Origin: a virus | DNA: 64,000 bases | Virus record (IMG/VR): IMGVR_UViG_3300043436_003813 | Coordinates: 6,355 to 70,354 of that record | Direction: 5' to 3' (one strand) | Shown: piece by piece, positions 1 to 64,000 of the stretch | How positions within the stretch are numbered: position 1 is the stretch's first letter | How the letters are laid out: every line of letters begins with the position of its first letter | Position numbers and translations under genes: made by a program | Notes under the pieces: model-generated | The model's database searches: none | What the model saw: only the letters and a program-made list of their open reading frames with translations | What the model was told of the DNA's origin: nothing

Positions 1-66
1 GGCGACCACAACGACACAATATGCCTCGCGGAGCGGATGACGATCAAGCAGGAGGAACTTTTCTGA
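1..66 (+). CDS. 3' end of a gene truncated by the window edge (GDHNDTICLAERMTIKQEELF*); resembles the C-terminus of a phage family usually annotated as a DNA methyltransferase
   Basis: Frame 1 open to TGA at 64-66; HNDTI motif recalled from that family. Confidence 0.4.
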   Translation, partial: GDHNDTICLAERMTIKQEELF

Positions 67-70
67 TTCT

Positions 71-90
71 GCCCAACAAGGCAAATAACC
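71..90. mobile_element. Possible relic attC half-site (RYYYAAC box)
   Basis: GCCCAAC 4 nt after a stop codon, a context similar to the attC arm at 47013; no partner arm found. Confidence 0.3.
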
Positions 91-117
91 CGTAGCCGCT
101 GAACATCACGCCCGCTA

Positions 118-447
118 ATGCTCGCCCTAAAGCGCATCCCGTGGCGAAAGCGTCGCGCCAAAGCCCAAGAGTGGGCGCGGCTTTCTCACGCTGCCCGCCT
201 CCGCAACAACGCCGAACGCGGACCTAGCAGCCGGGATGCCTACCTCTTGGCGCTTGAGGAATCACGTGGCATGGTGCTGCGTCATGGCGTGACCTATTCC
301 GCCGCGCACCCAGACGGACAACCGTGGGCGATTCTGCGCAGCAAGGTGGGGCGCACGAACCAAGTTGATCTTCATCTAGGAGAAGACATGGCCTTTACTG
401 GCTCGCTTCGCACCCTTGAGCGTGCCATGAGAAGGGCCAAGCTCTAG
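118..447 (+). CDS. Hypothetical protein (basic)
   Basis: 109-aa ORF, 2 nt from the next gene. Confidence 0.6.
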   Translation: MLALKRIPWRKRRAKAQEWARLSHAARLRNNAERGPSSRDAYLLALEESRGMVLRHGVTYSAAHPDGQPWAILRSKVGRTNQVDLHLGEDMAFTGSLRTLERAMRRAKL

Positions 448-449
448 CC

Positions 450-914
450 ATGAATCTCATCCTTCCCCCCACGCGCACCGAACCCATTGACTCGGAGAAG
501 GCCATTCTCTGGCGCTCACGTAGCCCGCAGGCGCGGGGACATGCCCGCAAGTATAGCGTGGAACTCTTGGACATTGCCGCGCGCATGGCTATAGAGAAGA
601 ACACGACGTATGCCGAGCAAAAGACAGGGGTGAGCCGCTGGTCCATCAAGAAGCATCTGGCCCGCAAGCACAGGGACGGCACGCTCCCCATGCGTAGGCG
701 TCCACGCAAGGACGGGGTGGCCCCGTGCTGCCGGCCAAAGTATGACAAGCGCCAGATTGAGGCCATGCTGAAGGCAGCACTGCGGGAGTATGCCGCGAAC
801 CCGTGGAAGACGCTTCCCTCCATTGTCAGGCAGACAGCTAAGGCATACAACTTGCCCGGCGAATACATCTGGTCCCGCGTAATGGCGGGCCATGTCCCAC
901 TTCCCACCATATAA
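450..914 (+). CDS. Hypothetical protein with possible HTH motifs
   Basis: YAEQKTGVSRWSIKKH and RQTAKAYNLPGEYIW segments; followed by a terminator. Confidence 0.6.
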   Translation: MNLILPPTRTEPIDSEKAILWRSRSPQARGHARKYSVELLDIAARMAIEKNTTYAEQKTGVSRWSIKKHLARKHRDGTLPMRRRPRKDGVAPCCRPKYDKRQIEAMLKAALREYAANPWKTLPSIVRQTAKAYNLPGEYIWSRVMAGHVPLPTI

Positions 915-916
915 GG

Positions 917-945
917 AAGGCCAGCCTTTATCGGGCTGGCCTTTT
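917..945. terminator. Intrinsic terminator between convergent genes
   Basis: AAGGCCAGCC-tttatcg-GGCTGGCCTTTT hairpin. Confidence 0.75.
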
Positions 946-956
946 GCTTTGGCTCC

Positions 957-1214
957 TTACGCCGCCTTACGCCACGCAAGGAACCGGGCCTTCACGTCCA
1001 GTGCCCATTCATTTAGCCGTGGCTTCTTCGGCTTCGGCACGTAGGCGTAGGTCTTCCTTGGGTGCTTCGGCCTCCATCCCGTCCCGCGTCTGCGCTTGTT
1101 GTCGCATTGGCGTCGGGACTCACGGTGCTTCTCTGGGTGGCGTTCCCGGTAGGCTTGGCTGTTCTTACGCTGGCGCTCGCGCCTACGCTCGGCCTGTTCT
1201 GGGGTCTCGCTCAT
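957..1214 (-). CDS. Hypothetical Arg/Lys-rich protein
   Basis: ORF from MSETPEQ, preceded by aaacacc and a promoter. Confidence 0.6.
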   Translation of the reverse strand: MSETPEQAERRRERQRKNSQAYRERHPEKHRESRRQCDNKRRRGTGWRPKHPRKTYAYVPKPKKPRLNEWALDVKARFLAWRKAA

Positions 1215-1230
1215 GGTGTTTAGTTCCGCC

Positions 1231-1260
1231 AACGTAGCGAAAACGGGAGCCGTAGCTCAA
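1231..1260 (-). promoter_or_regulatory. Sigma70-like promoter of the CGTTTY family
   Basis: TTGAGC-N18 (containing CGTTTT)-TACGTT. Confidence 0.5.
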
Positions 1261-1462
1261 GGGGATTCTCCGCTCTTACGTGGGGTTCACTCGGTCGTTG
1301 CCCTAGTTCACGGCAGAGGCAGACATGAAAAGCCCCAAGGCGGGTGAGAAAACCTTGGGGGCTCAACAATCTGGATGGACCATCGCGAGCTAACTCGACA
1401 GTCCCACCCATCTAAGGTGGAGATAAGACCACTCGCCTTTTGTCCGCGTCAACAGGTTTCGC

Positions 1463-1921
1463 TCAGTTGTATGGAGTAAATTCACGGGGCATGGCCTCCG
1501 TTGCTCCGGCTGGAAGTTGCCCCACGTTCGTGAATCGCCAGTTGATCTTAGACATCTGCGAGTTATACTCGGCAGCCAAGCTGTTGTAGCTGGCCTTCAC
1601 TCCAAGCATCTCCGTTTGCCACAAACCCACCTGCTCAAAGACATGGCGGGGCATGTCTCGCCCAACATAGCGCCCCTCCGTATTTGCAAGGCGCTGCTCG
1701 TAGAGGGCGATGTCAGCACGCTTCTTATCGAGTTGGGCGCGGGCATCCTTGAACCACTCGTAGCGGCGAAGCAGGGTGCGCGGGTCAATCTGCTCCTCGG
1801 CGGTGGACACCACCTTGCCTGCGTAGTCGGCGGCTTTCCCGCCGACATAGAGCATGGTGCAGCCAACGGGAAGTGCCACGCATCCAGCCAAGACCAAGGC
1901 GAAAACGGCGGCGGTCTTCAC
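1463..1921 (-). CDS. Membrane-anchored or lipoprotein coiled-coil protein (YEWF...YN family seen in phages)
   Basis: Hydrophobic N-terminus with LAGC; RRYEWFKD...SYNSLAAEYNS. Confidence 0.7.
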   Translation of the reverse strand: MKTAAVFALVLAGCVALPVGCTMLYVGGKAADYAGKVVSTAEEQIDPRTLLRRYEWFKDARAQLDKKRADIALYEQRLANTEGRYVGRDMPRHVFEQVGLWQTEMLGVKASYNSLAAEYNSQMSKINWRFTNVGQLPAGATEAMPREFTPYN

Positions 1922-2466
1922 TGAAGCACCTCCAAATTGAGCTTCACGGAACGAACGGGAAGCGGATTATCGGAGACATGGATGATGGCGCTGCTGCCAA
2001 CGAACTGCTGATGATAACGGCCTTGCACGTCCCACCAATAGAGGTATTCGGAGGAATCGCCGTAAGTGCCGTCATCTTGGAGGACTTCGGATGTAAGGCG
2101 GGTAGCGCCGCCGATGTCCACGTCAAAGCCCCTGTCGGAACCTCCGGGGGTATAACCCGCCCAAACTGACTTGGGCGTCAGGCGCTTGCCGCCACTAGTC
2201 ACCTTGCCCCGAACCGTGGAATAGATGAGGACATCACCGGACAGTGGGCTAATGACGTAGAGATGCTTGATGGAACCAGGAAGATTGTCCGTCTTGAGTC
2301 GATCACGGATGTTTCGCTGCTCAATGGTTAGCCCATCGGTGCCGGTTTGGACGACGGTGCTTGCCTTGGTGACGCCGGAGGCAGATTGGGGAGCGACGGG
2401 CTGCGGAAGATCGCAACCAGTGAGGAGTAACGAGGTGGCCAGGGCCGGGAATAGGAAGTGTTTCAT
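1918..2466 (-). CDS. Phage lipoprotein
   Basis: Signal peptide with lipobox LLTGC; KVTS...LTP and DDGTYG motifs; ATGA coupling to the next gene. Confidence 0.75.
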   Translation of the reverse strand: MKHFLFPALATSLLLTGCDLPQPVAPQSASGVTKASTVVQTGTDGLTIEQRNIRDRLKTDNLPGSIKHLYVISPLSGDVLIYSTVRGKVTSGGKRLTPKSVWAGYTPGGSDRGFDVDIGGATRLTSEVLQDDGTYGDSSEYLYWWDVQGRYHQQFVGSSAIIHVSDNPLPVRSVKLNLEVLQ

Positions 2467-2470
2467 GGGT

Positions 2471-2644
2471 TCAGGCGAAGAGTTGGGATGGTGCCGAGAC
2501 TTGAACGCTGCCGACCTTCTTAAGTGATTGGCCGGAGCGGATTTGCTGCCACACAGGAATTAACATAGCCAACAAGAGGCCGATAATTACGATGACGATC
2601 ATGGCTTCAAGAAGCGTGAAGCCCTTTGGTTTATTTTGTTTCAT
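2471..2644 (-). CDS. 57-aa type IV prepilin-like protein (N-terminal cleavage/methylation domain only); not in the ORF track
   Basis: MKQNKPKG|FTLLEAMIVIVIIGLLLAMLIPVWQQIRSG...: class III signal peptide with G-1, F+1, E+5 and a hydrophobic helix. Confidence 0.85.
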   Translation of the reverse strand: MKQNKPKGFTLLEAMIVIVIIGLLLAMLIPVWQQIRSGQSLKKVGSVQVSAPSQLFA

Positions 2645-2666
2645 GGTTTTGTTTTGGACGGAAAGA

Positions 2667-2696
2667 AGTGTAGCAGAAACGGGCGGTGATGCGCAA
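2667..2696 (-). promoter_or_regulatory. Promoter for the pilin/lipoprotein operon
   Basis: TTGCGC-N18 (containing CGTTTC)-TACACT. Confidence 0.55.
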
Positions 2697-2783
2697 GGAA
2701 ATCATGCCGCGTCCCCTGTCGATATGTTTGGCTCCGTGGATGGAGCGGCGATCAGGTCGGGGTGGGCTTAATGCTACGTGTGC

Positions 2784-3197
2784 CTAGGCGAACGGCTCAG
2801 TCCTGCCATATCTAGCGAGGTTATTGAGCGCCGCAATCTCCCGTGCTTGCCCGTCGGCTACGGCACAGGCTTCCTTGTGGAGGCGCTGGGATTCTGCTAG
2901 CTCCTTAGCCTGCTTAAACACGAGAGCAGCCAGCCGCTCCGTTTCTCTGTGGGATTCGGCTAACTGCTCCTCTAGGAGAGAGGCCCTTTCGTTGGCCTCA
3001 TTCATCTCTTGTTGGTGCAGTAACACCATAGCCTTGAACATCTCGTTGCACGCTGTAAATTTGTGCTCTAATTCTCGGGCGTGGTCCCGCATGTCGATAG
3101 CGATGCAAGACAACTCGGGATGGTCGGTGCTGTCCGTCTGGTGCTTAGCCTCTTCCCAAGCAGCGTTCGTCAGTGGTGTGGGCATGGTGTCGTTCAT
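2784..3197 (-). CDS. Hypothetical coiled-coil protein
   Basis: 137-aa ORF, heptad-rich, aaccATG start. Confidence 0.7.
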   Translation of the reverse strand: MNDTMPTPLTNAAWEEAKHQTDSTDHPELSCIAIDMRDHARELEHKFTACNEMFKAMVLLHQQEMNEANERASLLEEQLAESHRETERLAALVFKQAKELAESQRLHKEACAVADGQAREIAALNNLARYGRTEPFA

Positions 3198-3199
3198 GG

Positions 3200-3408
3200 T
3201 TACGGTTCGATGATGGATTGAAAGCCCGCGATCATGGAGGTGATGTATGGATACCGGAGTTCTGGTTTCACCGCGTTTACGGGGTATCCCTGCGCCTCAA
3301 GTAGGGCATAGTTCCCTGCCTCAAGTCTTTTATGGCCGCGATGGCGCGCTCGGATGTGAGGTCGCCGGATGCCACTAGTTCATCCGCGACGGGGGTTGGT
3401 GTGTTCAT
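3200..3408 (-). pseudogene. Small gene with a 1-nt frameshift in an A run (about 3328-3332)
   Basis: MNTPTPVADEL...AAIK continues in the -1 frame as RLEAGNYALLEAQGYPV...IIEP*, stopping 2 nt before the next ATG; span is 209 nt. Confidence 0.5.
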
Positions 3409-3413
3409 GGTTT

Positions 3414-3662
3414 CTATAGCGTGTATTTCCAAGGGTTGTTCTCTCTAAATTCATGGGCTAGTCTAATGAAGACGTTCCTGATCTGTAGGAAGGCTTCGTC
3501 CGCATGTCTGTCTCGAAGTTCTTGCGACCAATCGGGGTGCAGTCTGAGCATTTTCTCATCCTGCTCCTCTATGAGGTGGCGGTATTCGGGTTCCACCGGG
3601 ACTCGCTTGTAGTCCCCGGTGGCGACTATCTCCTCTTGGAGCCGTGAGTAATAGCCGCTCAT
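3414..3662 (-). CDS. Hypothetical protein
   Basis: 82-aa ORF in a tightly packed run. Confidence 0.6.
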   Translation of the reverse strand: MSGYYSRLQEEIVATGDYKRVPVEPEYRHLIEEQDEKMLRLHPDWSQELRDRHADEAFLQIRNVFIRLAHEFRENNPWKYTL

Positions 3663-3681
3663 TTGTAGATTGGTTTCATGG

Positions 3682-3912
3682 TTAGGAATAGATGAGAGTG
3701 CGCTTCTTTTTGGAGGGCGAGAGTTTGTGCCATGCCGAAATTACAGCCCCGGTTTTTCGGCCAATGTTCCGCTTGCTTGGCTCCCCGTCCTTGCGGCAGA
3801 GGAGCGGGCCAAGGTAGTTGTGCCACTCAAAGGTGACGCCACGGTAGCGGTAGATGTTGGGGCAGTTGATGTGTGCCCCGCCTCCGTTGAATGGGATGAA
3901 GTGTCCGGCCAT
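3682..3912 (-). CDS. Hypothetical protein
   Basis: 76-aa ORF; FEWHNYLGPLLCRKDGEP motif typical of small phage proteins. Confidence 0.65.
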   Translation of the reverse strand: MAGHFIPFNGGGAHINCPNIYRYRGVTFEWHNYLGPLLCRKDGEPSKRNIGRKTGAVISAWHKLSPSKKKRTLIYS

Positions 3913-3915
3913 TGG

Positions 3916-4404
3916 CTACGCCTCCAAGAGTTTCGCTGCGATGCCGTATGCCCGCACTTGCCCCGCCCGCTCGCGGCAGATGCCATACTTCTCCTGGATG
4001 AAGGCATTGTCCTTCCCGTCCTTCATGTCCCCAAGCATCTTCACGATCCGGGGCATGTCTCGCCCGAGCCTGCGGTGGCCGATTTGCTTGGGTTGATAGG
4101 GAAAGCGCGGCCCCTTCGGCTTCTCGCCAAGCTGGAGCAGCCGGCGATAGACGTGCTCCGGGCTCTTAAGCCCCATTTCCTTGGCAATAGAGACGCAATC
4201 GTGGCCCTCCCTATGCAGGGATACCATTCGCTGCTTCTTCGCCCCGGAAATGGAAATGTAGGGCACGTTATGGCGGCGCAAGATGGACTCCGCATACGGG
4301 ACCCGCATCCCCACTTCACTTGCTAGCTCGCTTATGAGCCTGACTTCTTGCTTGGCTAGGGCGATGAGAGAAAGGCGGCGTTTGTGTGCGGAAGAATGTT
4401 CCAT
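3916..4404 (-). CDS. Multi-HTH DNA-binding protein
   Basis: ISELASEVGMRVPYAESIL, SIAKEMGLKSPEHVYRRL and IQEKYGICRERAGQV segments. Confidence 0.6.
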   Translation of the reverse strand: MEHSSAHKRRLSLIALAKQEVRLISELASEVGMRVPYAESILRRHNVPYISISGAKKQRMVSLHREGHDCVSIAKEMGLKSPEHVYRRLLQLGEKPKGPRFPYQPKQIGHRRLGRDMPRIVKMLGDMKDGKDNAFIQEKYGICRERAGQVRAYGIAAKLLEA

Positions 4405-4518
4405 AGGTATCTTGTTTGCGGGTGTCTGGGTAGCGACGTTCCGACCGGACGCGCCGCATGGCGTCGTGCCAGTCAATGTCGGTGATGGTGTGGAATAGGG
4501 CGAAGGGGATGGGGCGCT

Positions 4519-4794
4519 TCACGCGGCATACACTTTCAGCTTCTTGAGCCAACCCTCCAGCTTGGCTTCGGCGTCTAGTTCCGTGGCAAAGCAGCGGTCA
4601 TAGAACTTGTTCTCATGGTTGGCGTCCAGCACCAGCACCGTAAAGCACGTGCTCGCCCTGCCACCAACAAGCGATAGCTCAATGAAGTTCTTGCTTTGCC
4701 CCTTGATGATTTCGTTGTTCACCTGCGCGCATATCTCCGTCCATAGGCGGAGGAGGGCGATGCGGTGGCGGGCTTCGTCGTGATCGGGCTTCAT
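4519..4794 (-). CDS. Hypothetical protein
   Basis: 91-aa ORF, ATGA coupling. Confidence 0.6.
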   Translation of the reverse strand: MKPDHDEARHRIALLRLWTEICAQVNNEIIKGQSKNFIELSLVGGRASTCFTVLVLDANHENKFYDRCFATELDAEAKLEGWLKKLKVYAA

Positions 4795-5015
4795 TTGATT
4801 TCCTCCAAGCGGACATCGCCATACTCATTGAGGACCACCCACTGATGGGTGCCAGCGCGAACGAGGGCGGCGGAGCGTTCCTCGCGGCGGAGGTCGGCGT
4901 GGCGGCGGATAACGGTGTCGCGGTGCATGATCTTGGCGTAGTGGCTGTCGGCGCGTAGGCGGAGCGCGAGGTAAGCGCAGATCGCGAGGGCGATGATAAG
5001 GGCGGCGGCGGTCAT
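4791..5015 (-). CDS. Small membrane-anchored protein
   Basis: MTAAALIIALAICAYLAL N-terminal TM; ATGA coupling. Confidence 0.6.
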   Translation of the reverse strand: MTAAALIIALAICAYLALRLRADSHYAKIMHRDTVIRRHADLRREERSAALVRAGTHQWVVLNEYGDVRLEEIK

Positions 5016-5278
5016 TTCGCCTCCTTTGCGAAGTCGGGGTGAAGGGTGGCGAGGACGGCGCGGGCACACTTAGGCCCGCAGGTCTCAGCTGCCCGCTCCA
5101 CCAGCGCCTCACGGCTCGCGGCATCGAAGGGGATGACGAGGACAGGCTCGACTGGATAGAAGCCACCGTAGTAGCGCGCATGACTCAGAGGCGTGGTGAC
5201 ATTATCCTTCCCGCATGTCCACATCTTGCGAGCATTTACCCGCTTGGTGCGCATTGGATTCTTTGATTTGGTTTTCAT
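5012..5278 (-). CDS. Hypothetical protein
   Basis: ORF from MKTKSK, caaccATG start. Confidence 0.55.
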   Translation of the reverse strand: MKTKSKNPMRTKRVNARKMWTCGKDNVTTPLSHARYYGGFYPVEPVLVIPFDAASREALVERAAETCGPKCARAVLATLHPDFAKEAK

Positions 5279-5318
5279 GGTTGAGCCCATACACCCAACC
5301 AGAAAAGCACACGAAACG

Positions 5319-5558
5319 TCAAGCGTCTTTTTCGGTGTAAGCCCAGCCCATCCGCTGCGCCAAGTCCTCACACGCCAGCCCCAGCGCCGTAGGCTTGTCC
5401 CATATCCACGCCTCACCCACCACTAACCCACGGGCAGACATCCACTCCCACGTGAAGTGATTGCTGGCCACTTGGGTCAGGCGCAGTTTCCAGCCTTGCT
5501 TGCTGGCTTGGGCGGTTATGGCTTCGCAGTAGTTTCGTAAGTTAAACGTGGCGTGCAT
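5319..5558 (-). CDS. Hypothetical protein
   Basis: 79-aa ORF overlapping the resolvase stop. Confidence 0.55.
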   Translation of the reverse strand: MHATFNLRNYCEAITAQASKQGWKLRLTQVASNHFTWEWMSARGLVVGEAWIWDKPTALGLACEDLAQRMGWAYTEKDA

Positions 5559-6051
5559 AGTGATAGCTTATAAGCAAACCGTCGGCGTCCCCGTGCTTAC
5601 GGATAGCCTCGGCGTATTGCGGAAAGAGTTGGATGCCGCGCAGCATGGATGCCTTCTTCAATTCCGCGCTACCCTTGACGGCACCGAGCAACGCCTTCTG
5701 CCACTCGCCAGAATCCACCACCTCGTAGCCAATGCCCAAGTCCTCTAGGGTGATAATCGTGGCCTCGTAGAAAGAGCGAGCCGAGAGCATGGCGTTAATC
5801 ATCATGGCCCCACCAGTAAACGGACGCTCCACGTAGGCGCGTGCCTTCACCTCTCCACTCATTGTGTTAATGTCGGCATGGTGAATCAGTAAGTTCCTTA
5901 GCGCACCACGATCAAGACGTTGGCTTATCTTGCCCCTCTTTCCGTAGTGCAGGGTGTCCGTCGTTGGGGTCTCCACGAAGCACACCGCCTGCCCGTCCCG
6001 CATAGCACCTATGGTGCCGGACTGGCCGTTATCTATCCCGATGATTGTCAT
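5542..6051 (-). CDS. RuvC-like Holliday junction resolvase
   Basis: IIGIDNGQSG (catalytic D), AYVERPF (E), WQK..LG, HGDADGLLI (D..D) RNase H-fold motifs. Confidence 0.8.
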   Translation of the reverse strand: MTIIGIDNGQSGTIGAMRDGQAVCFVETPTTDTLHYGKRGKISQRLDRGALRNLLIHHADINTMSGEVKARAYVERPFTGGAMMINAMLSARSFYEATIITLEDLGIGYEVVDSGEWQKALLGAVKGSAELKKASMLRGIQLFPQYAEAIRKHGDADGLLISYHYARHV

Positions 6052-6190
6052 TTCTTTGACCTCTTTACGGCAGCCTTCTTTACGAGCTTGCTGTTCTTCA
6101 CGCGGCCCTGATCCAGCGCGCGCAGTTCTTTGTCTACCAACTCACAGATGCGAGCATAGTAGGCGGTGGCAGAGGCGATGGAGTCTTGGC

Positions 6191-6583
6191 TCAAGCGTCG
6201 CCCTCCTTCGCACTGCCGTTGTCGGCGAGGGCAGCGTCCCATGCGTTTGCTGCTCCGACACCATCCGTCCCATCGAGGCAGAGGTGCCGCAGGGCGTTGC
6301 GCATCTTCTCTCCCACTGCGACCAGCCGCGCGTTGCGGGCCTCAAACTTAAGTGCGTCAAGGCGGTAGCGTTCGGCCTTCTCCTCTTGCTCGGCCACGCG
6401 AGCGCGGAGTGCGTCGCGCTCCTGCAACCCCTCGCGCAACATGGCAGCCTTTGTGCGCTCGTCTAGGGCGACCTGCGCACGCAGCCGCGTTAGCTCCGCA
6501 AGACGACGCCCGGCAAGCGCCGCCCATTCGCTAGTCTTCTCAATCATCGCCGCCTCTAGTTCTTCGTATGTTGGCTTGTTCAT
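6191..6583 (-). CDS. Hypothetical coiled-coil protein
   Basis: MNKPTYEELEA..., heptad pattern. Confidence 0.6.
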   Translation of the reverse strand: MNKPTYEELEAAMIEKTSEWAALAGRRLAELTRLRAQVALDERTKAAMLREGLQERDALRARVAEQEEKAERYRLDALKFEARNARLVAVGEKMRNALRHLCLDGTDGVGAANAWDAALADNGSAKEGDA

Positions 6584-43642: not shown

Positions 43643-43971
43643 GGCGGGACCACTCCTCAAACAGTCGGAAGCGAAGGCAAGTAACCGTCAGCGCCAGCCA
43701 TGCGGCAGCGTTCTCGACGGCGAGTAAAAGGCGGAAGATTATCCGCCCGATGTATTTTCTGCCACTGGGAATCATAGGGAAACAAGAAGGCCCCGAGAGG
43801 TGGTAGTCTCTCGGGGCCAAGTTCCCGAATGAACTTTGACTCGCCCAAACGCGAATTGGGCGCAGGAAATACCTACCGGAAGTGCTACCACGCACTCAAG
43901 AAAAAACTAACAACTAAGCTGAGAAATGACTCAGCCAACGGTGCAGACCGCTAGCGACTGTCAACAACTAT

Positions 43972-44851: not shown

Positions 44852-44928
44852 TGGCGTCTCCGGCTGGACTTGAACCAGCAGCCACCGACTTAGAATGACG
44901 GTGCTCTGTCCGATTGAGCTACGAAGAC
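44852..44928 (-). tRNA. tRNA-Arg(UCU)
   Basis: GTCTTCG-TA-GCTC AATCGGACA GAGC-A-CCGTC ATTCTAA GTCGG-TGGCT-GCTGG TTCAAGT CCAGC-CGGAGAC-G-CCA; A20 Arg identity element. Confidence 0.88.
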
Positions 44929-45169: not shown

Positions 45170-45336
45170 TCCCCCGCTGCGAGTGTCCGGCAGCGTAACC
45201 GCTGCGCTAGGCGTTGGCCTCGGATGTTGCACACACTCGCACTATGCCTTCGTATCTCAAGCCAGCATTTGAGCATTGCCCATTGGGCTAGAGGCGTAGG
45301 CTTGCGTTTCTGGCTCGGGCTGTGCAGCCACGGGGA
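45170..45336 (-). ncRNA. Structured ncRNA candidate (unit 5)
   Basis: Closing stem TCCCCG(TG)GCTGC/GCAGCGGGGGA; inner AGCCAG/CTGGCT, GCGAGTGT/ACACTCGC, GCAGCG-gtta-CGCTGC. Confidence 0.55.
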
Positions 45337-45339
45337 AAT

Positions 45340-45413
45340 TGGTGAGCCCGCTGAGATTTGAACTCAGCCTGTAAGCCGTTTCAGGCGTCTTCGTGGGCCG
45401 TAAGGCCGGGCTC
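45340..45413 (-). ncRNA. 74-nt tRNA-like RNA with aberrant D and anticodon arms
   Basis: Perfect acceptor GAGCCCG/CGGGCTC plus A-CCA; T-arm CTGAG-TTCAAAT-CTCAG. Confidence 0.7.
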
Positions 45414-45440
45414 GTAATTGGGAAAGAACAAAAGGATTCC

Positions 45441-45498
45441 ATCTGTGCCTACGGAGCCGGTCTCCTATCCCACGACAGGCGTGGGGCTTCGGCCAGAT
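45441..45498 (-). ncRNA. Structured ncRNA candidate (unit 3)
   Basis: ATCTG..GCC/GGC..CAGAT closing stem; CCACG-cctgt-CGTGG hairpin. Confidence 0.4.
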
Positions 45499-45508
45499 AG
45501 AAATGGTA

Positions 45509-45613
45509 TCCGCGTCCCCCTACCTGTTTCACTGGCCACACACATCCACATGAACAACACACAATCGTAGGCCGTCCGTAGGTCTCCTACGGCACCATGA
45601 CGGGGAACGCGGA
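45509..45613 (-). ncRNA. Structured ncRNA candidate (unit 2)
   Basis: 12-bp closing stem TCCGCGTTCCCC/GGGGGACGCGGA; CCGTAGG-aga-CCTACGG hairpin. Confidence 0.55.
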
Positions 45614-45620
45614 AAGGGTT

Positions 45621-45851
45621 GGGTGGGCCAGATTGGCTACTGGCTTTGTGGTCGATAGGCGTGTGCCGACGCCTCGTTTTAGTGCCCGCAGGTCAGTGTC
45701 GCCCCCTTTCACTCCCCCGTATCTGCTGGTCGGCAGGTAACACCTTTCGGCCTAGGGAGGGGCTATCGCTACGTTACCCCTGCTCTCCATTACGCGGATC
45801 ACCGGAATGGCTCTCGATTCACTGATTAACGGCTCAACTCCGTCGCCACCC
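45621..45851 (-). ncRNA. Structured ncRNA candidate (unit 1)
   Basis: GGGTGG/CCACCC closing stem, several inner hairpins, no credible ORF, directly downstream of a promoter. Confidence 0.45.
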
Positions 45852-45873
45852 AAAAGATCAAAGAACAGGCCAC

Positions 45874-45959
45874 ACCATAGGGGAAACGGGCACGCGAGAA
45901 CAAGAACATTCGCGTGGGAAACTTCTCACTTGCTTTCCTTGGGGCGTTTCCGATAGGGT
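45874..45959. promoter_or_regulatory. Divergent promoter pair (CGTTTC family)
   Basis: Minus: TTGTTC-N18-TATGGT (45903-45874); plus: TTGCTT-N18-TAGGGT (45930-45959); both contain CGTTTC-N3 before the -10 box. Confidence 0.55.
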
Positions 45960-45968
45960 GGAGGGGAC

Positions 45969-46193
45969 ATGAGAATCACTATCTTATCCGCTCATCCGGC
46001 GTCCTGCTTTTTGCCAGCCTCGCCAGCCCATCTCCGCCTCATAGCCGAGAACGCGGCAGAGGAAGATCAAATCAAATCCCTGCTGGCCAATCTCAAGCAG
46101 GGCGGGGCTACCGTCTCCCAATACGGCCAGCCCACCAGCGCAGACTACATGGCCGTGGGGCTGGAAGTGGAGTTGGCTCCATCGCGTTGTTAG
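45969..46193 (+). CDS. Hypothetical protein
   Basis: 74-aa ORF after a promoter; stop lies inside the attC half-site. Confidence 0.55.
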   Translation: MRITILSAHPASCFLPASPAHLRLIAENAAEEDQIKSLLANLKQGGATVSQYGQPTSADYMAVGLEVELAPSRC

Positions 46194-46195
46194 GC
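46169..46195 (-). mobile_element. Truncated attC site (R''-L'' half)
   Basis: GCCTAAC-AACGC-GATGGAGC-CAACTCC; no L'/R' partner found. Confidence 0.7.
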
Positions 46196-46209
46196 CTCTT
46201 TTTTATATT

Positions 46210-46608
46210 TCATAAAGGCTTTCCGTCCGGTCCCAGTAGGCCGTCATCCCAATCACAATTCGTAGTGCTATCAATAATCTGAATCCCGTCACTCTTATGA
46301 CGCCCTTCCATCTCCTCAATCCTGCTCATCAATTCAGAAACCTTCGCCTTTTCTACTTTAAGATCAGCGTCCGACTTCTCCAATTCAGAAAGTCTCGCTT
46401 GGAGCGATATAACAAGCTGCTTCTGCTGCGCCAAGTCCGTGTGCAAATGGAGACATTCCTTCTCGATGCGAAAATAATCCGCTTGGAAACGCGCAGCAAG
46501 CTCTTGGATGGCGTGAATATCCGCGAGGAACTTGCGGTCCTTATGGCTCGCTGCGAGAGACTGAGTGAGCGCAATGAGTGCACTGATAGTGGTAACGGGT
46601 TCGGGCAT
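46210..46608 (-). CDS. Integron-cassette-borne coiled-coil hypothetical protein (cassette B)
   Basis: ATG 17 nt after GTTAGGC and stop 14 nt before GCCTAAC; promoterless; lower GC than the flanks. Confidence 0.75.
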   Translation of the reverse strand: MPEPVTTISALIALTQSLAASHKDRKFLADIHAIQELAARFQADYFRIEKECLHLHTDLAQQKQLVISLQARLSELEKSDADLKVEKAKVSELMSRIEEMEGRHKSDGIQIIDSTTNCDWDDGLLGPDGKPL

Positions 46609-46625
46609 GGTATTGGTTTGGTTCC

Positions 46626-46755
46626 GCCTAACAACCAAGCTGAGCCGCGCCGGTAAAATACTATGAACACCACGACAGCAGATTTTAGCCTCGAACAACC
46701 TGCCCCGAACGCCTGCGTGACCAGCGTAGGCGTTGGCTCTAGCGCCTTGTTGGGC
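46626..46755 (-). mobile_element. Complete integron attC site (130 bp)
   Basis: R'' GCCCAAC-5nt-L'' GCT(A)GAGC...L' GCTCAGC-6nt-R' GTTAGGC, with canonical spacers and an extrahelical base. Confidence 0.85.
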
Positions 46756-46778
46756 TCAGTTTTCATTTCTTATTTCTT

Positions 46779-47018
46779 ATGGATACCAAAACACAAGCAA
46801 GCCCCGCACTTCGGGAGTTTACCATGCGAGTCTCGAAAGACCTGTTGAAGACCGGATGGACTATCCGCGACGACGGAGCCGCTGGGATGCCGGATGATGT
46901 GATGGAATCGGATCTGGGTCGGTCGGTAGCGTCCCACGCCCACCTCCTAGAGCCGGACGACTGGAAGAAACTGCGCATCGAAATACTGAAGCGGGAACTT
47001 GATGCTCTTTCTACCTAA
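46779..47018 (+). CDS. Hypothetical protein in cassette A (antisense to the attC top strand)
   Basis: 79-aa ORF whose TAA lies inside the ACCTAAC box. Confidence 0.6.
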   Translation: MDTKTQASPALREFTMRVSKDLLKTGWTIRDDGAAGMPDDVMESDLGRSVASHAHLLEPDDWKKLRIEILKRELDALST

Positions 47019-47030
47019 CAACCAAGCTCA
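47013..47030 (-). mobile_element. Truncated attC site (L'-R' half)
   Basis: TGAGC-TTGGTT-GTTAGGT; shares CCTAACAACCAAGCT with the complete attC. Confidence 0.7.
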
Positions 47031-62848: not shown

Positions 62849-63449
62849 TAGCACACAAATGACACCTGAGGAGTTCTGTCAAAAACACGACGCTTGCCAT
62901 GATGGGGCTGCGTTTGCCCTAAAATACGCCACGATGGCCGAAGTGTGGGATGCCTGCCCACGAATTGATTGGCTCTGCTGGATACTTGAGCGCCTTGATG
63001 TCGCCCCCGACGATTGCAAGGTCCGCGAGTTCATGTGTTGGGCCGCGACCGAGACGCCTCTCCACGACGGGCGCAAAACGCTCGACCTCCTCACCGACGA
63101 GCGCAGCCGCGCTGCTGTCAATGTAGCTATGCGATTTGCCAGAGACGATGCCAACCAAGAAGAGCTGTCTGCGGCTCGGTCTGCGGCTCGGTCTGCGGCT
63201 GAGTCTGCGGCTGAGTCTGCGGCTCGGTCTGCGGCTGAGTCTGCGGCTTGGTCTGCGGCTCGGTATGCGGCTTGGTCTGCGGCTCGGTATGCGGCTTGGT
63301 CTGCGGCTGAGTCTGCGGCTGAGTCTGCGGCTCGGTCTGCGGCTGAGTCTGCGGCTTGGTCTGCGGCTTGGTCTGCGGCTCGGTCTGCGCAAGTCAAACA
63401 TTTCCGCTCCATGTTCCCCAATCCATTCACCGAGAACCTAGCCAAATGA
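62841..63449 (+). CDS. Ala-rich repeat protein (SAAR/SAAE/SAAW repeats)
   Basis: FCQKHDACHDG...DWLCW...LLTDERSRAAV followed by tetrapeptide repeats. Confidence 0.75.
   Translation: MNNSTQMTPEEFCQKHDACHDGAAFALKYATMAEVWDACPRIDWLCWILERLDVAPDDCKVREFMCWAATETPLHDGRKTLDLLTDERSRAAVNVAMRFARDDANQEELSAARSAARSAAESAAESAARSAAESAAWSAARYAAWSAARYAAWSAAESAAESAARSAAESAAWSAAWSAARSAQVKHFRSMFPNPFTENLAK
63168..63389 (+). repeat. 12-bp in-frame tandem repeat, about 18 units
   Basis: T(C/A)TGCGGCT(CGG/GAG/TGG) units. Confidence 0.9.
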
Positions 63450-63799: not shown

Positions 63800-63851
63800 C
63801 TTGCTTGCTGTGGGGTGCTCTGATTGCTGTTTCTGTGGCGTGACAGCTACC

Positions 63852-63878
63852 GGGCTTGGCCGCGACGACATGTTAGGC
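63852..63878 (-). mobile_element. Truncated attC site (R''-L'' half)
   Basis: GCCTAAC-ATGTC-GTCGCGGC-CAAGCCC; same architecture as the arms at 46169-46195 and 46729-46755. Confidence 0.55.
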
Positions 63879-63897
63879 TCCTTTTATTTTTATACCT

Positions 63898-64000
63898 ATG
63901 GCTACCGACGAAAAAATCTACGCTGAGCGCATCGCACACGCTAAAATCAGTCTCGATTTCTGGTGGGGGCAGTATGCAAAATATGCCGACGCAAACGCCG
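63898..64000 (+). CDS. 5' end of a gene running off the window (MATDEKIYAERIAHAK...)
   Basis: ATG 19 nt after GTTAGGC; open to the window end. Confidence 0.5.
   Translation, partial: MATDEKIYAERIAHAKISLDFWWGQYAKYADANA

What the first reader, a model, noticed from the sequence alone, without database searches (positions are those of the whole stretch)
46169..47030. Integron-type attC gene-cassette array inside a phage genome, with no integrase
Seen in the sequence: minus-strand 46755-46626 is a textbook attC (R'' GCCCAAC, 5 nt, L'' GCTAGAGC with one extrahelical A, L' GCTCAGC, 6 nt, R' GTTAGGC). It is flanked by an L'/R' half-site at 47013-47030 and an R''/L'' half-site at 46169-46195, which defines two cassettes. 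Cassette B is canonical: a promoterless ORF starts 17 nt after GTTAGGC and ends before a perfectly complementary GCCTAAC. Cassette A carries its ORF antisense, with the stop inside the R box. The block sits between two convergent phage genes, and no intI occurs in the window. Established: IntI recombines folded attC bottom strands and can act in trans. Inference: the phage captures and exchanges accessory genes using host integron machinery, and could ferry cassettes between hosts.
Basis: partly seen in the sequence, partly recalled or inferred. Interest (0 to 1): 0.9.

Follow-up and report, generated by a model that had tools for sequence, protein, structure and literature searches.

The report
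Integron cassette array in a phage
This lake-water phage stores small accessory genes in swappable cassettes bounded by the folded DNA sites that bacterial integrons use, has no integrase of its own, and mostly carries the genes back to front compared with the bacterial version.

Summary
Window 46626-46755 is one complete attC-type site. 46172-46195 and 47013-47030 are half-sites.

The block is a small outpost of a larger system. The same repeat family forms 14 complete sites in bases 379-5879 of the same 70,354-base viral record, almost all outside the window.

All 15 complete sites share one geometry, with covarying stems: a 7-nt RYYYAAC box, a 6-nt spacer, a stem, a variable loop, the return stem with one extra base, 3 nt, a 5-nt spacer, and a GTTRRRY box.

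A model built only from 48 bacterial sites finds 13 of the 15. Those sites lie in arrays of a phylum sampled around a Verrucomicrobiota MAG, some beside true integron integrases.

A complete 39-kb phage genome (G005) has the same site family directly upstream of its own IntI. This record has no recombinase.

The new point is gene polarity:
- In the bacterial arrays the genes lie on the attC top strand.
- In the phage arrays they lie on the bottom strand, often starting inside the hairpin loop.
- Cassette B of the finding is the exception, with bacterial polarity.

Phage attC clusters without an integrase are published (Qi et al. 2023). This scan has also noted reversed phage cassettes on other DNA. 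Recombination itself is not shown here.

The parts
46626..46755 (+). Complete attC-type site (called E15 here). The plus strand has bottom-strand geometry: GCCTAAC, 6 nt, stem, about 85-nt loop, stem with one extra T, 3 nt, 5 nt, GTTGGGC.
   Evidence: Sequence and geometry. The fold pairs both boxes. R1 scores it 94.3 bits as a training member. The bacterial-only model R2 scores it 37 bits, E 1e-6. It is about 84% identical over 137 nt to record site 4680-4811 and to the site next to intI in G005.
46172..46195 (+). It overlaps the stop of ORF 45969..46193. It is probably the decayed last attC of the block.
   Evidence: It shares 25 nt with the 3' arm of record site 1103-1201. No complete partner arm was found: R1 gives 12.7 bits, E 0.47 for 46085-46195.
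47013..47030 (+). It holds the stops of both converging ORFs.
   Evidence: The 15-mer 47014-47028 is identical to 46627-46641.
46632..47018 (.). Cassette A as a unit (387 bp): site E15 plus the 79-aa plus-strand ORF. It is bounded by the two inferred AA|C crossover points (46631|46632 and 47018|47019).
   Evidence: The two boxes start 387 nt apart (family D6). The crossover position is inferred from the published rule that IntI cleaves AA|C on the bottom strand (PMC5027507, passages read).
46779..47018 (+). Cassette A ORF, 79 aa (64 aa from an inner Met). It lies on the attC bottom strand, the phage polarity. It is an orphan.
   Evidence: The codon score is weak (0.036, best frame, no stops). 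The only hits are its own cluster and one 85%-identical 70-aa protein on a 749-nt contig.
46210..46608 (-). Cassette B ORF, 132 aa, coiled-coil-like. It lies on the attC top strand and wholly between the sites, the bacterial polarity. It is an orphan.
   Evidence: The best codon score is on the minus strand (0.175). Pfam and PHROGs give only weak coiled-coil matches below cut-offs. The only homolog is a 100%-identical protein on one other contig.
43904..43924 (+). Degenerate third copy of the box-plus-spacer motif, followed by a perfect 6-bp hairpin. There is no GTTRRRY partner.
   Evidence: No hit with R1 or R2.
71..77 (+). GCCCAAC box that ends the main array, with no return arm. It stands where G005 and a bacterial integron have a box-only site just upstream of intI, so it is attI-like. 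No intI follows here.
   Evidence: TIGR02249 and PF00589 are absent from the record.
1..66 (+). 3' end of the last main-array gene (record 5821..6420, 199 aa). I read a DPPY motif in it, as in DNA methyltransferases. It starts inside the loop of record site 5776-5879.
   Evidence: There is no Pfam or NCBIfam hit, so the methyltransferase reading rests on the motif read by eye.
63840..63878 (+). Distal half-site of the main array (return arm and GTTAGGC only), at the right end of the record. From 63874 to 64000 the record repeats record bases 2780-2906 (cassette c7) exactly.

Best explanation
The block is a genuine integron-type cassette locus in a tailed phage. It holds one complete attC site, two cassettes, and two half-sites at its edges. 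It belongs to a larger system in the same phage genome, which has 14 more complete sites in one array.

The sites are of the same family as the attC sites of chromosomal integrons in bacteria of a phylum sampled around a Verrucomicrobiota MAG.

How it most likely works (inferred, not shown):
1. The plus strand folds into the attC hairpin.
2. An integron integrase supplied in trans binds the two boxes. It could come from the host's chromosomal integron or from a co-infecting phage such as G005.
3. The single extra base at position 16 orients it, and it cuts AA|C in the 5' box (46631|46632 and 47018|47019).
4. Cassette A (387 bp) can then be excised or exchanged as a unit.

Unlike bacterial cassettes, most phage cassettes carry the gene on the attC bottom strand. 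The hairpin sits ahead of the gene. In 7 of the 14 main-array sites the gene's start codon lies in the hairpin loop. The array is read towards the attI-like end. Cargo includes DNA methyltransferases, which are plausible anti-restriction genes.
For: Shown by calls:

1. Site family. There are 15 complete sites, 88-132 nt long and all on the plus strand. The 5' box fits RYYYAAC perfectly in 12 of 15 and with one mismatch in 3. The 3' box fits GTTRRRY perfectly in 10 of 15 and with one mismatch in 5. Spacers are 6 and 5 nt. One extra base lies in the 3' arm, 16 nt from the 3' end.
2. Folding. The minimum-energy DNA fold pairs the two boxes in 11 of 15.
3. Covariation, on 11 of the 15 sites. Four were left out because MAFFT misaligned them. 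92.7% of cells pair, 6 of 8 stem pairs show changes on both sides, and 0 of 500 shuffles reach this. Slid controls pair in 25-45% of cells.
4. Held-out test. Model R1, built from those 11, finds the 4 left-out sites at 33-47 bits and nothing else complete in 72 kb.
5. Reciprocal test. Model R2, built only from 48 bacterial sites, finds 13 of 15 phage sites at E <= 0.01, all on the plus strand.
6. Link to IntI.
   - G005 is a 39,440-base viral record with terminal repeats and a major head protein.
   - It has 6 R1 hits directly upstream of an IntI that scores 354 bits against a TIGR02249 cut-off of 265.
   - Bacterial genomes G114 and G096 have arrays of R1 hits upstream of IntI genes of 372 and 313 bits.
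   - In 5 of 5 intI-array pairs the R1 strand is the intI coding strand, and the array lies at the intI 5' end.
7. Strand rule. Extrahelical bases lie opposite the AAC arm on the bottom strand (PMC5027507, passages). A canonical Vibrio phage integron used as a control has them on the AAC arm of the gene strand.
8. Polarity, by longest open frame between sites.
   - Bacterial arrays, 48 intervals: the opposite strand wins in 40, the R1 strand in 3, and 5 are ties.
   - Viral arrays, 39 intervals: the R1 strand wins in 17, the opposite strand in 2, and 20 are ties.
   - Pfam over cut-off: 3 of 10 bacterial ORFs on the opposite strand, 5 of 7 G005 array ORFs on the R1 strand, 1 of 11 plus-strand and 0 of 9 minus-strand ORFs in this record.
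   - The codon score favours an open plus-strand frame in 11 of 15 intervals.
9. Spread. R1 finds arrays in 7 further viral records (32 hits) and in 4 of 99 loci of terminase relatives.
10. Variation at the locus. One Logan contig of run X3 lies on 46169-46641 with 2 differences and then runs on unlike the window. The break is 10 nt past the inferred crossover.
Against: - No integrase, nor any recombinase, is in the record. The record is only 79% complete.
- The block itself has one complete site. Its two edges are half-sites that a simple IntI insertion does not predict.
- The isolated site folds no better than shuffles.
- The plus strand is not the more stable one overall (8 of 15; means -18.9 against -18.3 kcal/mol). 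It is C-rich rather than G-rich in 10 of 15, unlike the bottom strands of mobile-integron sites described in PMC5027507.
- Cassette c7 occurs behind two different sites, and the switch lies inside the GTTRRRY box, not at the canonical AA|C box.
- Both cassette proteins are orphans, so nothing ties them to bacterial integrons.
- IntegronFinder's own model could not be run.
- My two models are family-specific. R2 finds nothing in Tetrasphaera phage TJE1 and only one 14-bit match in the Vibrio integron.
- R2's alignment was seeded by the phage-derived R1.
Confidence: 0.8

Rival explanations
1. The sites are real attC-type sites but are now inert relics in this phage. On this view the small block arose from the main array by homologous or illegitimate recombination between repeats, and nothing recombines it today.
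For: - No integrase is in the record.
- Both edges of the block, and both ends of the main array, are half-sites.
- The c7 duplicate switches inside the GTTRRRY box rather than at AA|C.
- The X3 break lies within a 15-nt direct repeat that could equally support homologous recombination.
Against: - Fifteen sites keep box sequence, spacing, the extra base and paired stems through compensatory changes. That argues for continued selection on the folded form.
- The family sits next to intact IntI genes in a phage and in bacteria.
Confidence: 0.2
2. The repeats are intergenic RNA or regulatory hairpins of a phage early operon that only resemble attC. Candidates are processing sites, translational coupling elements, or mobile regulatory cassettes of the kind described in T4-type phages (this comparison is recalled, not looked up).
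For: - They lie on the coding strand.
- 7 of 14 main-array sites hold the start codon of the next gene in the loop.
- At least 9 genes end inside the next site.
Against: - The box consensus, spacer lengths and extra base at position 16 match bacterial attC sites of the same family one for one.
- In bacteria the same sites lie antisense to the genes, so an mRNA role cannot explain their conservation.
- They adjoin IntI in 5 of 5 cases examined.
- Sigma-70-like promoters are not enriched: 3 found against 2.2 expected, none inside a site.
Confidence: 0.05
3. The arrays are host chromosome or an assembly chimera, not phage DNA.
For: - The main array lies at a contig end.
- The record's last 127 bases repeat an inner cassette.
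- At least one Logan contig of run X2 switches between two sites inside a 41-nt identical stretch.
Against: - The finding's block lies between terminase-side and portal-side genes, 46 kb from the main array.
- Viral records with terminal repeats rated 100% complete (G003, G005) carry the same family.
- The polarity of the array genes is the viral one, not the bacterial one.
Confidence: 0.03

Closest known systems
CALINs (clusters of attC sites lacking an integron integrase) in bacteriophage genomes. Source: Qi, Rajabal, Ghaly, Tetu and Gillings 2023, Front Microbiol, PMC9892861 (abstract, section 3.4 and passages read; supplements closed).
   Same: attC-bounded cassettes in phages without intI. 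DNA methyltransferases are among the cargo. Some sites point in divergent directions or enclose several ORFs. In that study five of six phage sites tested recombined with IntI1.
   Different: - Here there are 14 + 1 complete sites in one phage.
- The site family is traced to bacterial chromosomal integrons.
- A related complete phage has its own IntI.
- Gene polarity is systematically reversed relative to those bacterial arrays.

I could not see that paper's supplementary tables. I therefore cannot say how many sites its 17 CALINs hold, or how their genes are oriented.
Sedentary chromosomal integrons of bacteria in the phylum sampled around G012, whose locus title reads Verrucomicrobiota MAG. 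The example is G114 contig 12.
   Same: Same site family and geometry: 7-6-stem...stem-extra base-3-5-7, many of 98-99 nt. There is a box-only attI-like site next to intI. Sites sit on the intI coding strand.
   Different: Bacterial genes lie on the attC top strand and wholly between the sites. Most phage genes lie on the bottom strand and overlap the sites at both ends. Cassette B of the finding is the bacterial kind.
Complete integrons in temperate phages, for example Vibrio phage Va_90-11-286_p16 (MK672802), listed by Qi et al. 2023.
   Same: A phage genome holding intI plus a cassette array, as G005 does. I used it here as the canonical control for strand geometry.
   Different: That integron is described as a captured piece of the host's chromosomal integron with canonical gene polarity. 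G005 has reversed polarity, with intI downstream of the genes and co-directional with them. The window's own record has no intI.
Promoter-stem-loop 'mobile regulatory cassettes' of T4-type phages
   Same: Repeated structured intergenic elements that separate small accessory genes in a variable phage region.
   Different: Those act through homologous recombination and carry promoters. Here the elements have integron box sequences and geometry, adjoin IntI in relatives, and show no promoter enrichment.

Membership tests
integron attC recombination site | Terminal inverted boxes R'' (RYYYAAC) and R' (GTTRRRY) that pair with each other | tested here: met
   The 5' box fits perfectly in 12 of 15 and with one mismatch in 3. 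The 3' box fits perfectly in 10 of 15 and with one mismatch in 5. AAC is present in 15 of 15. For 46626-46755 both boxes are perfect and pair 7 of 7, with one G-T pair.
integron attC recombination site | L''/L' stem conserved as structure rather than as sequence | tested here: met
   on 11 of 15 sites. 93.2% of cells in the stem pair and 6 of 8 pairs show compensatory changes. 0 of 500 shuffles reach the observed covariation score.
integron attC recombination site | Extrahelical base(s) on the arm opposite the AAC triplet of the recombined (bottom) strand | tested here: met
   There is one extra base in the 3' arm of the plus strand, 16 nt from the 3' end, in the phage sites and in the bacterial sites shown. 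The rule comes from PMC5027507. The canonical control is.
integron attC recombination site | Unpaired central spacer and a variable terminal structure | tested here: met
   Spacers of 6 and 5 nt are left unpaired in most folds. Total lengths are 88-132 nt.
integron attC recombination site | Hit by the curated attC covariance model (IntegronFinder or HattCI) | not testable with these tools
   That model is not on hand, and Rfam gave no such match. As a stand-in, model R2 from 48 bacterial sites finds 13 of 15 phage sites at E <= 0.01. R2 is family-specific and its alignment was seeded by R1.
integron attC recombination site | Recombined by an integron integrase | not testable with these tools
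   This needs an attC x attI assay. The only indirect hint is one contig break next to the box.
CALIN (two or more attC sites, no intI nearby) | At least two complete attC sites within a few kb on one strand | tested here: not met
   This row concerns the finding's block alone. It holds one complete site, 46626-46755. The record as a whole meets the criterion, with 14 sites at record 379-5879.
complete integron | intI on the same replicon, next to an attI site | tested here: not met
   There is no TIGR02249 or PF00589 match in the 70,354-base record. A box-only, attI-like site at window 71-77 has no intI after it. The record is 79% complete.
canonical integron cassette | Gene on the attC top strand, lying between the sites | tested here: not met
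   Cassette B meets it. Cassette A and the main array do not: a plus (bottom) strand frame is favoured in 11 of 15 intervals, and the methyltransferase lies on the plus strand. Viral arrays contrast with bacterial arrays.

The most novel reading that the evidence does not exclude
Freshwater phages of Verrucomicrobiota-type hosts keep their own pool of polarity-reversed integron cassettes. The attC hairpin sits ahead of the gene, the start codon lies in the hairpin loop, and the arrays are read towards attI and intI. On this reading the cassettes are shuffled by an IntI that some of these phages encode and others borrow. That would make a phage-side gene-exchange network that uses the host's site family but is largely separate from the bacterial cassette pool. 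It could also bear on how cassettes are made.
Probability: 0.45. Interest if true: 0.85.

Novelty: new variant of a known kind. Interest (0 to 1): 0.65.

Why it matters
Integrons are known as bacterial devices. Phage-borne attC clusters were reported only in 2023, from 21 of 10,705 phage genomes.

Here one site family can be followed across three settings: bacterial chromosomal integrons, a complete phage with its own IntI, and integrase-less phages with up to 14 sites in a row.

Gene polarity flips between bacteria and phages. If this holds, three things follow:
- Phages would be regular users of integron recombination for anti-defence and other accessory genes, not occasional carriers.
- Shared site families could serve as a handle for assigning hosts.
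- A natural contrast would exist (same site, opposite gene polarity, start codons inside the hairpin) for two open questions: how cassettes originate and how strand choice is set.

Tried and rejected
**Close relatives.**
- Terminase homologs of 71-81% identity exist (P0002-P0005).
- The search for related loci gave nothing for the single protein. For the alignment it gave only relatives of 50% identity or less.
- The synteny test at this exact locus in near relatives was therefore not done.
- A 14-nt box motif is absent from the 133 loci then held.

**Annotation.**
- Rfam gave only three sub-threshold matches outside the block.
- Pfam and PHROGs name none of the ten local proteins, terminase included.

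**Run X2 contig.** Record 5 joins cassette B, the site, and the start of the main-array methyltransferase. Its 8 differences are exactly those between the two sites to the right of a 41-nt identical stretch. I take it as a likely k-mer chimera or homologous exchange and give it no weight.

**Depth.**
- Runs X3, X4 and X6 cover the flanks.
- They show little or no cover over 46216-46617 and 46819-47019.
- No contig joins across that gap, so this is not evidence of absence.
- Other loose ends (X3 before 47024 and 47030; X6 behind 46177; X2 and X4 at 46731 and 46767) show other neighbours or other family members. I could not resolve them from 30 letters each.
- My reading that the X3 run-on resembles a variant 3' end of the 202-aa gene rests on 30 letters and is weak.

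**Other checks.**
- R2 on Tetrasphaera phage TJE1 and on the Vibrio integron gave one 14-bit match. I could not compare polarity with the published phage CALINs.
- Strand stability and purine skew gave no support for the strand assignment.
- The promoter scan showed no enrichment. It covers only the sigma-70 type.
- Host assignment to Verrucomicrobiota rests on site-family likeness only. 10 of 151 genomes of that phylum are hit, with up to 21 hits and 68.8 bits. In the class of G011, 10 of 151 are hit, with at most 4 hits each. Those ten include G011's own phage contig and the unpublished genomes G204 and G306.
- searched 99 of the 139 loci then held. L078, L081, L083, L084, L086 and L100-L133 were not searched.
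- In one search, seven loci share one short 48-nt, 30.4-bit match that I did not examine.
- skipped intervals under 120 nt and did not include G003, G004 or G010.

**Literature.** Searches for attC with 'img vr' returned 0 papers. Integron with 'viral contigs' and 'integron integrase' returned 2 papers that looked unrelated by title and abstract start. A search on 'inverted integrase' and passages from three papers gave no description of reversed gene polarity. Supplements of Qi et al. 2023 were closed and may list array sizes and orientations.
Full report
**What is at the coordinates**

- On the minus strand, 46755-46626 has a GCCCAAC box, a 5-nt spacer, and an 8-nt stem arm with one extra A. 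It then has the 7-nt partner arm, a 6-nt spacer and a GTTAGGC box.
- The left edge (46172-46195) repeats the first half of that site. The right edge (47013-47030) repeats the second half.
- The repeats are far beyond chance.
- A third, degenerate copy of the right-hand motif lies at 43904-43924.
- Taken alone, the site does not fold better than shuffled sequence.
- The window is bases 6355-70354 of an IMG/VR record of 70,354 bases, rated linear and 79% complete. It has no integron integrase, tyrosine recombinase or serine recombinase.

**The block belongs to a much larger family**

A scan of the whole record for the core of the repeat showed six more plus-strand copies in the 6.3 kb that precede the window. 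Reading that stretch (locus L134) shows 14 complete sites between record bases 379 and 5879. Each separates small plus-strand ORFs.

With the window's site this makes 15. They share these features:
- Length of 88-132 nt.
- A 5' box fitting RYYYAAC (12 perfect, 3 with one mismatch), then a 6-nt spacer and a stem.
- A variable loop.
- A return stem with one extra base, then 3 nt and a 5-nt spacer.
- A 3' box fitting GTTRRRY (10 perfect, 5 with one mismatch).

DNA folds pair the two boxes in 11 of 15.

I aligned 11 of the 15. E2, E6, E7 and E8 were dropped because MAFFT misplaced their 5' arms. On those 11, 92.7% of cells pair and 6 of the 8 stem pairs show compensatory changes. No shuffle of 500 reaches this, and slid controls pair in 25-45% of cells.

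A covariance model from those 11 (R1) finds the four dropped sites at 33-47 bits. It finds no other complete site in the window. The left half-site region reaches only 12.7 bits.

The window's site is about 84% identical over its whole length to record site 4680-4811.

**Are these integron sites? Evidence from elsewhere**

*Other viral records.*
- A 23-nt degenerate pattern of the 3' arm hits 18 other IMG/VR contigs. R1 scores matches in 17 of them.
- R1 finds rows of sites in seven further viral records, 32 hits in all.
- It finds sites in 4 of 99 loci of distant terminase relatives searched.

*Integrases in viral records.*
- Ten of these viral records were searched for the integron-integrase family.
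- G005 (39,440 bases, terminal repeats, rated complete) has one at 354 bits against a cut-off of 265.
- G009 has the same gene split in two pieces.
- Eight records have none.
- G005 and G009 share the same array, so they count as one case.
- G005 is a phage by content: a major head protein at 151 bits, a virion protein, a primosomal protein and a DnaB-like helicase.
- Its six sites lie directly upstream of intI, on the same strand.

*Bacteria.*
- R1 hits 10 of 151 genomes of the phylum of G012, whose locus title reads Verrucomicrobiota MAG. There are 21 hits in G114 and 13 in G096, up to 68.8 bits.
- It hits 10 of 151 genomes of the class of G011, with at most 4 hits each.
- G114 and G096 have IntI genes of 372 and 313 bits. 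Rows of sites lie upstream of them, on the intI strand.
- The bacterial sites have the same layout position for position, many of 98-99 nt.

*Reciprocal model.* A model made only from 48 bacterial sites (R2) finds 13 of the 15 phage sites at E <= 0.01. It scores 46626-46755 at 37 bits, always on the plus strand. R2 is family-specific. It does not find the sites of a Vibrio phage integron or of Tetrasphaera phage TJE1.

**Which strand is which**

Nivina et al. 2016 (PMC5027507, passages read) state two rules:
- IntI cleaves 5'-AAC-3' on the bottom strand.
- Extrahelical bases lie opposite that triplet on the bottom strand, and on the same arm on the top strand.

In a canonical control, the integron in Vibrio phage MK672802, the gene strand carries the extra bases on the AAC arm at positions 16, 20 and 24.

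In the phage sites here, the plus strand has AAC in the 5' arm and the extra base in the 3' arm at position 16.

The position of intI agrees. In 5 of 5 intI-array pairs (G005, G114 twice, G096 twice) the model's strand is the intI coding strand and the array lies at the intI 5' end. That is the canonical arrangement.

Two expected strand biases are not seen:
- The plus strand is the more stable one in only 8 of 15.
- It is C-rich in 10 of 15.

**Reversed gene polarity**

*Bacterial arrays.*
- The genes lie on the top strand, between the sites.
- Over 48 intervals, the longest open frame is on the strand opposite the model in 40, on the model's strand in 3, and tied in 5.
- Three of ten such ORFs pass Pfam cut-offs: Imm35, DUF1877 and Imm-NTF2-2.

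*Viral arrays.*
- Over 39 intervals, the model's strand wins in 17, the opposite strand in 2, and 20 are ties.
- In G005, five of seven array ORFs on the model's strand pass Pfam cut-offs: Dam, N6_N4_Mtase, the DnaG zinc ribbon, HTH_31 and HAD_SAK_2.
- In this record, 1 of 11 plus-strand ORFs passes (N6_N4_Mtase, 54.5 bits) and 0 of 9 minus-strand ORFs.
- A codon score trained on the phage's long genes favours an open plus-strand frame in 11 of 15 intervals.

*Overlap with the sites.* Seven of the 14 main-array sites hold, in their loop, the ATG that opens the next ORF. At least nine ORFs end inside the next site.

*The finding's block.* Cassette B has the bacterial polarity and lies wholly between the sites. 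Cassette A has the phage polarity.

**Array ends**

The main array and the block are bounded the same way.
- At the intI-proximal side there is a box-only site. These are window 71-77 for the main array and 47013-47030 for the block.
- In G005 and G114 the equivalent site sits just upstream of intI.
- At the far side there is a site with a good 3' arm and a decayed 5' arm: window 63840-63878 and 46172-46195.

The record's last 127 bases repeat cassette c7 exactly. The switch lies inside the GTTRRRY box and not at AA|C. The canonical mechanism does not explain this.

**Is it active?**

This is not shown.
- One contig of run X3 covers 46169-46641 and then continues differently, 10 nt past the inferred crossover.
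- Other loose ends show that the neighbours of the 202-aa gene differ among near-identical strains. I could not resolve them.
- Both cassette proteins are orphans.

**Comparison with what is known**

Qi et al. 2023 (PMC9892861; abstract, section 3.4 and passages read) screened 10,705 phage genomes. They found 3 complete integrons, 1 In0 and 17 CALINs, and showed that five of six phage sites recombine with IntI1. They also noted five methyltransferases among the cargo.

What I did not find in print (searches; supplements closed):
- The reversed polarity.
- Start codons inside the hairpin.
- The same site family shared with bacterial integrons of opposite polarity.

Earlier notes of this scan report reversed phage cassettes on other DNA. 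These are unchecked AI notes. I tested the point only on the data here.

**Verdict**

The block is a genuine integron-type cassette locus. It is a new variant of a known kind. Mobility is inferred.

Noticed in passing
record bases 1-6431 (locus L134); only window 1-77 lies inside the window: The main cassette array has 14 complete attC-type sites and about 15 small plus-strand ORFs. One is an N6_N4 DNA methyltransferase (record 4719..5432). A second ORF carries a DPPY motif (record 5821..6420). The array ends in a box-only site at window 71-77.
   Followed up: yes
window 63874-64000 and record 2780-2906: The record's last 127 bases repeat cassette c7 exactly, behind a different site arm. Identity starts inside the GTTRRRY box. 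This suggests that the array spans the record's ends and that the population holds more than one array arrangement.
   Followed up: partly
window 45170-45960: A stretch of about 700 nt has no convincing ORF. Rfam gives sub-threshold matches: a tRNA-like mascRNA match at 45344-45413 (26.7 bits, cut-off 42.5) and DUF3800-VIII at 45433-45506 (28 bits, cut-off 40.2). Contigs of run X3 skip 74, 140 and 243 nt within it. A tRNA-Arg(TCT) lies at 44852-44928.
   Followed up: no
window 63170-63390: A long run of near-perfect short tandem repeats (units such as GCTCGGTCTGCG / GCTGAGTCTGCG) lies inside a plus-strand ORF. I saw it while reading the right end.
   Followed up: no
L162 (G005) 3479-5091: A complete 39-kb phage genome carries its own integron integrase directly downstream of, and co-directional with, its cassette genes. 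The last cassette is a Dam-type methyltransferase whose start codon lies in the attC loop. A box-only site lies 62 nt before the intI start.
   Followed up: partly
window 46663-46755; L134 4719-4811; L162 3512-3610: Three related sites encode the same N-terminal leader (MNTTT...GVGSSALLGS) from their loop and 3' arm. It is fused in frame to two different methyltransferases in L134 and G005. In the window it is out of frame with the next ORF.
   Followed up: partly
L004 4105-5075 and 11852-12301; L182-L185 (G011 contig 1): Distant terminase relatives (39-45% identity) also carry sites of this family, in L004 right after the terminase gene. One such phage contig sits inside a bin titled Sulfuritalea MAG. 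All four hits of that genome lie on that one contig.
   Followed up: no
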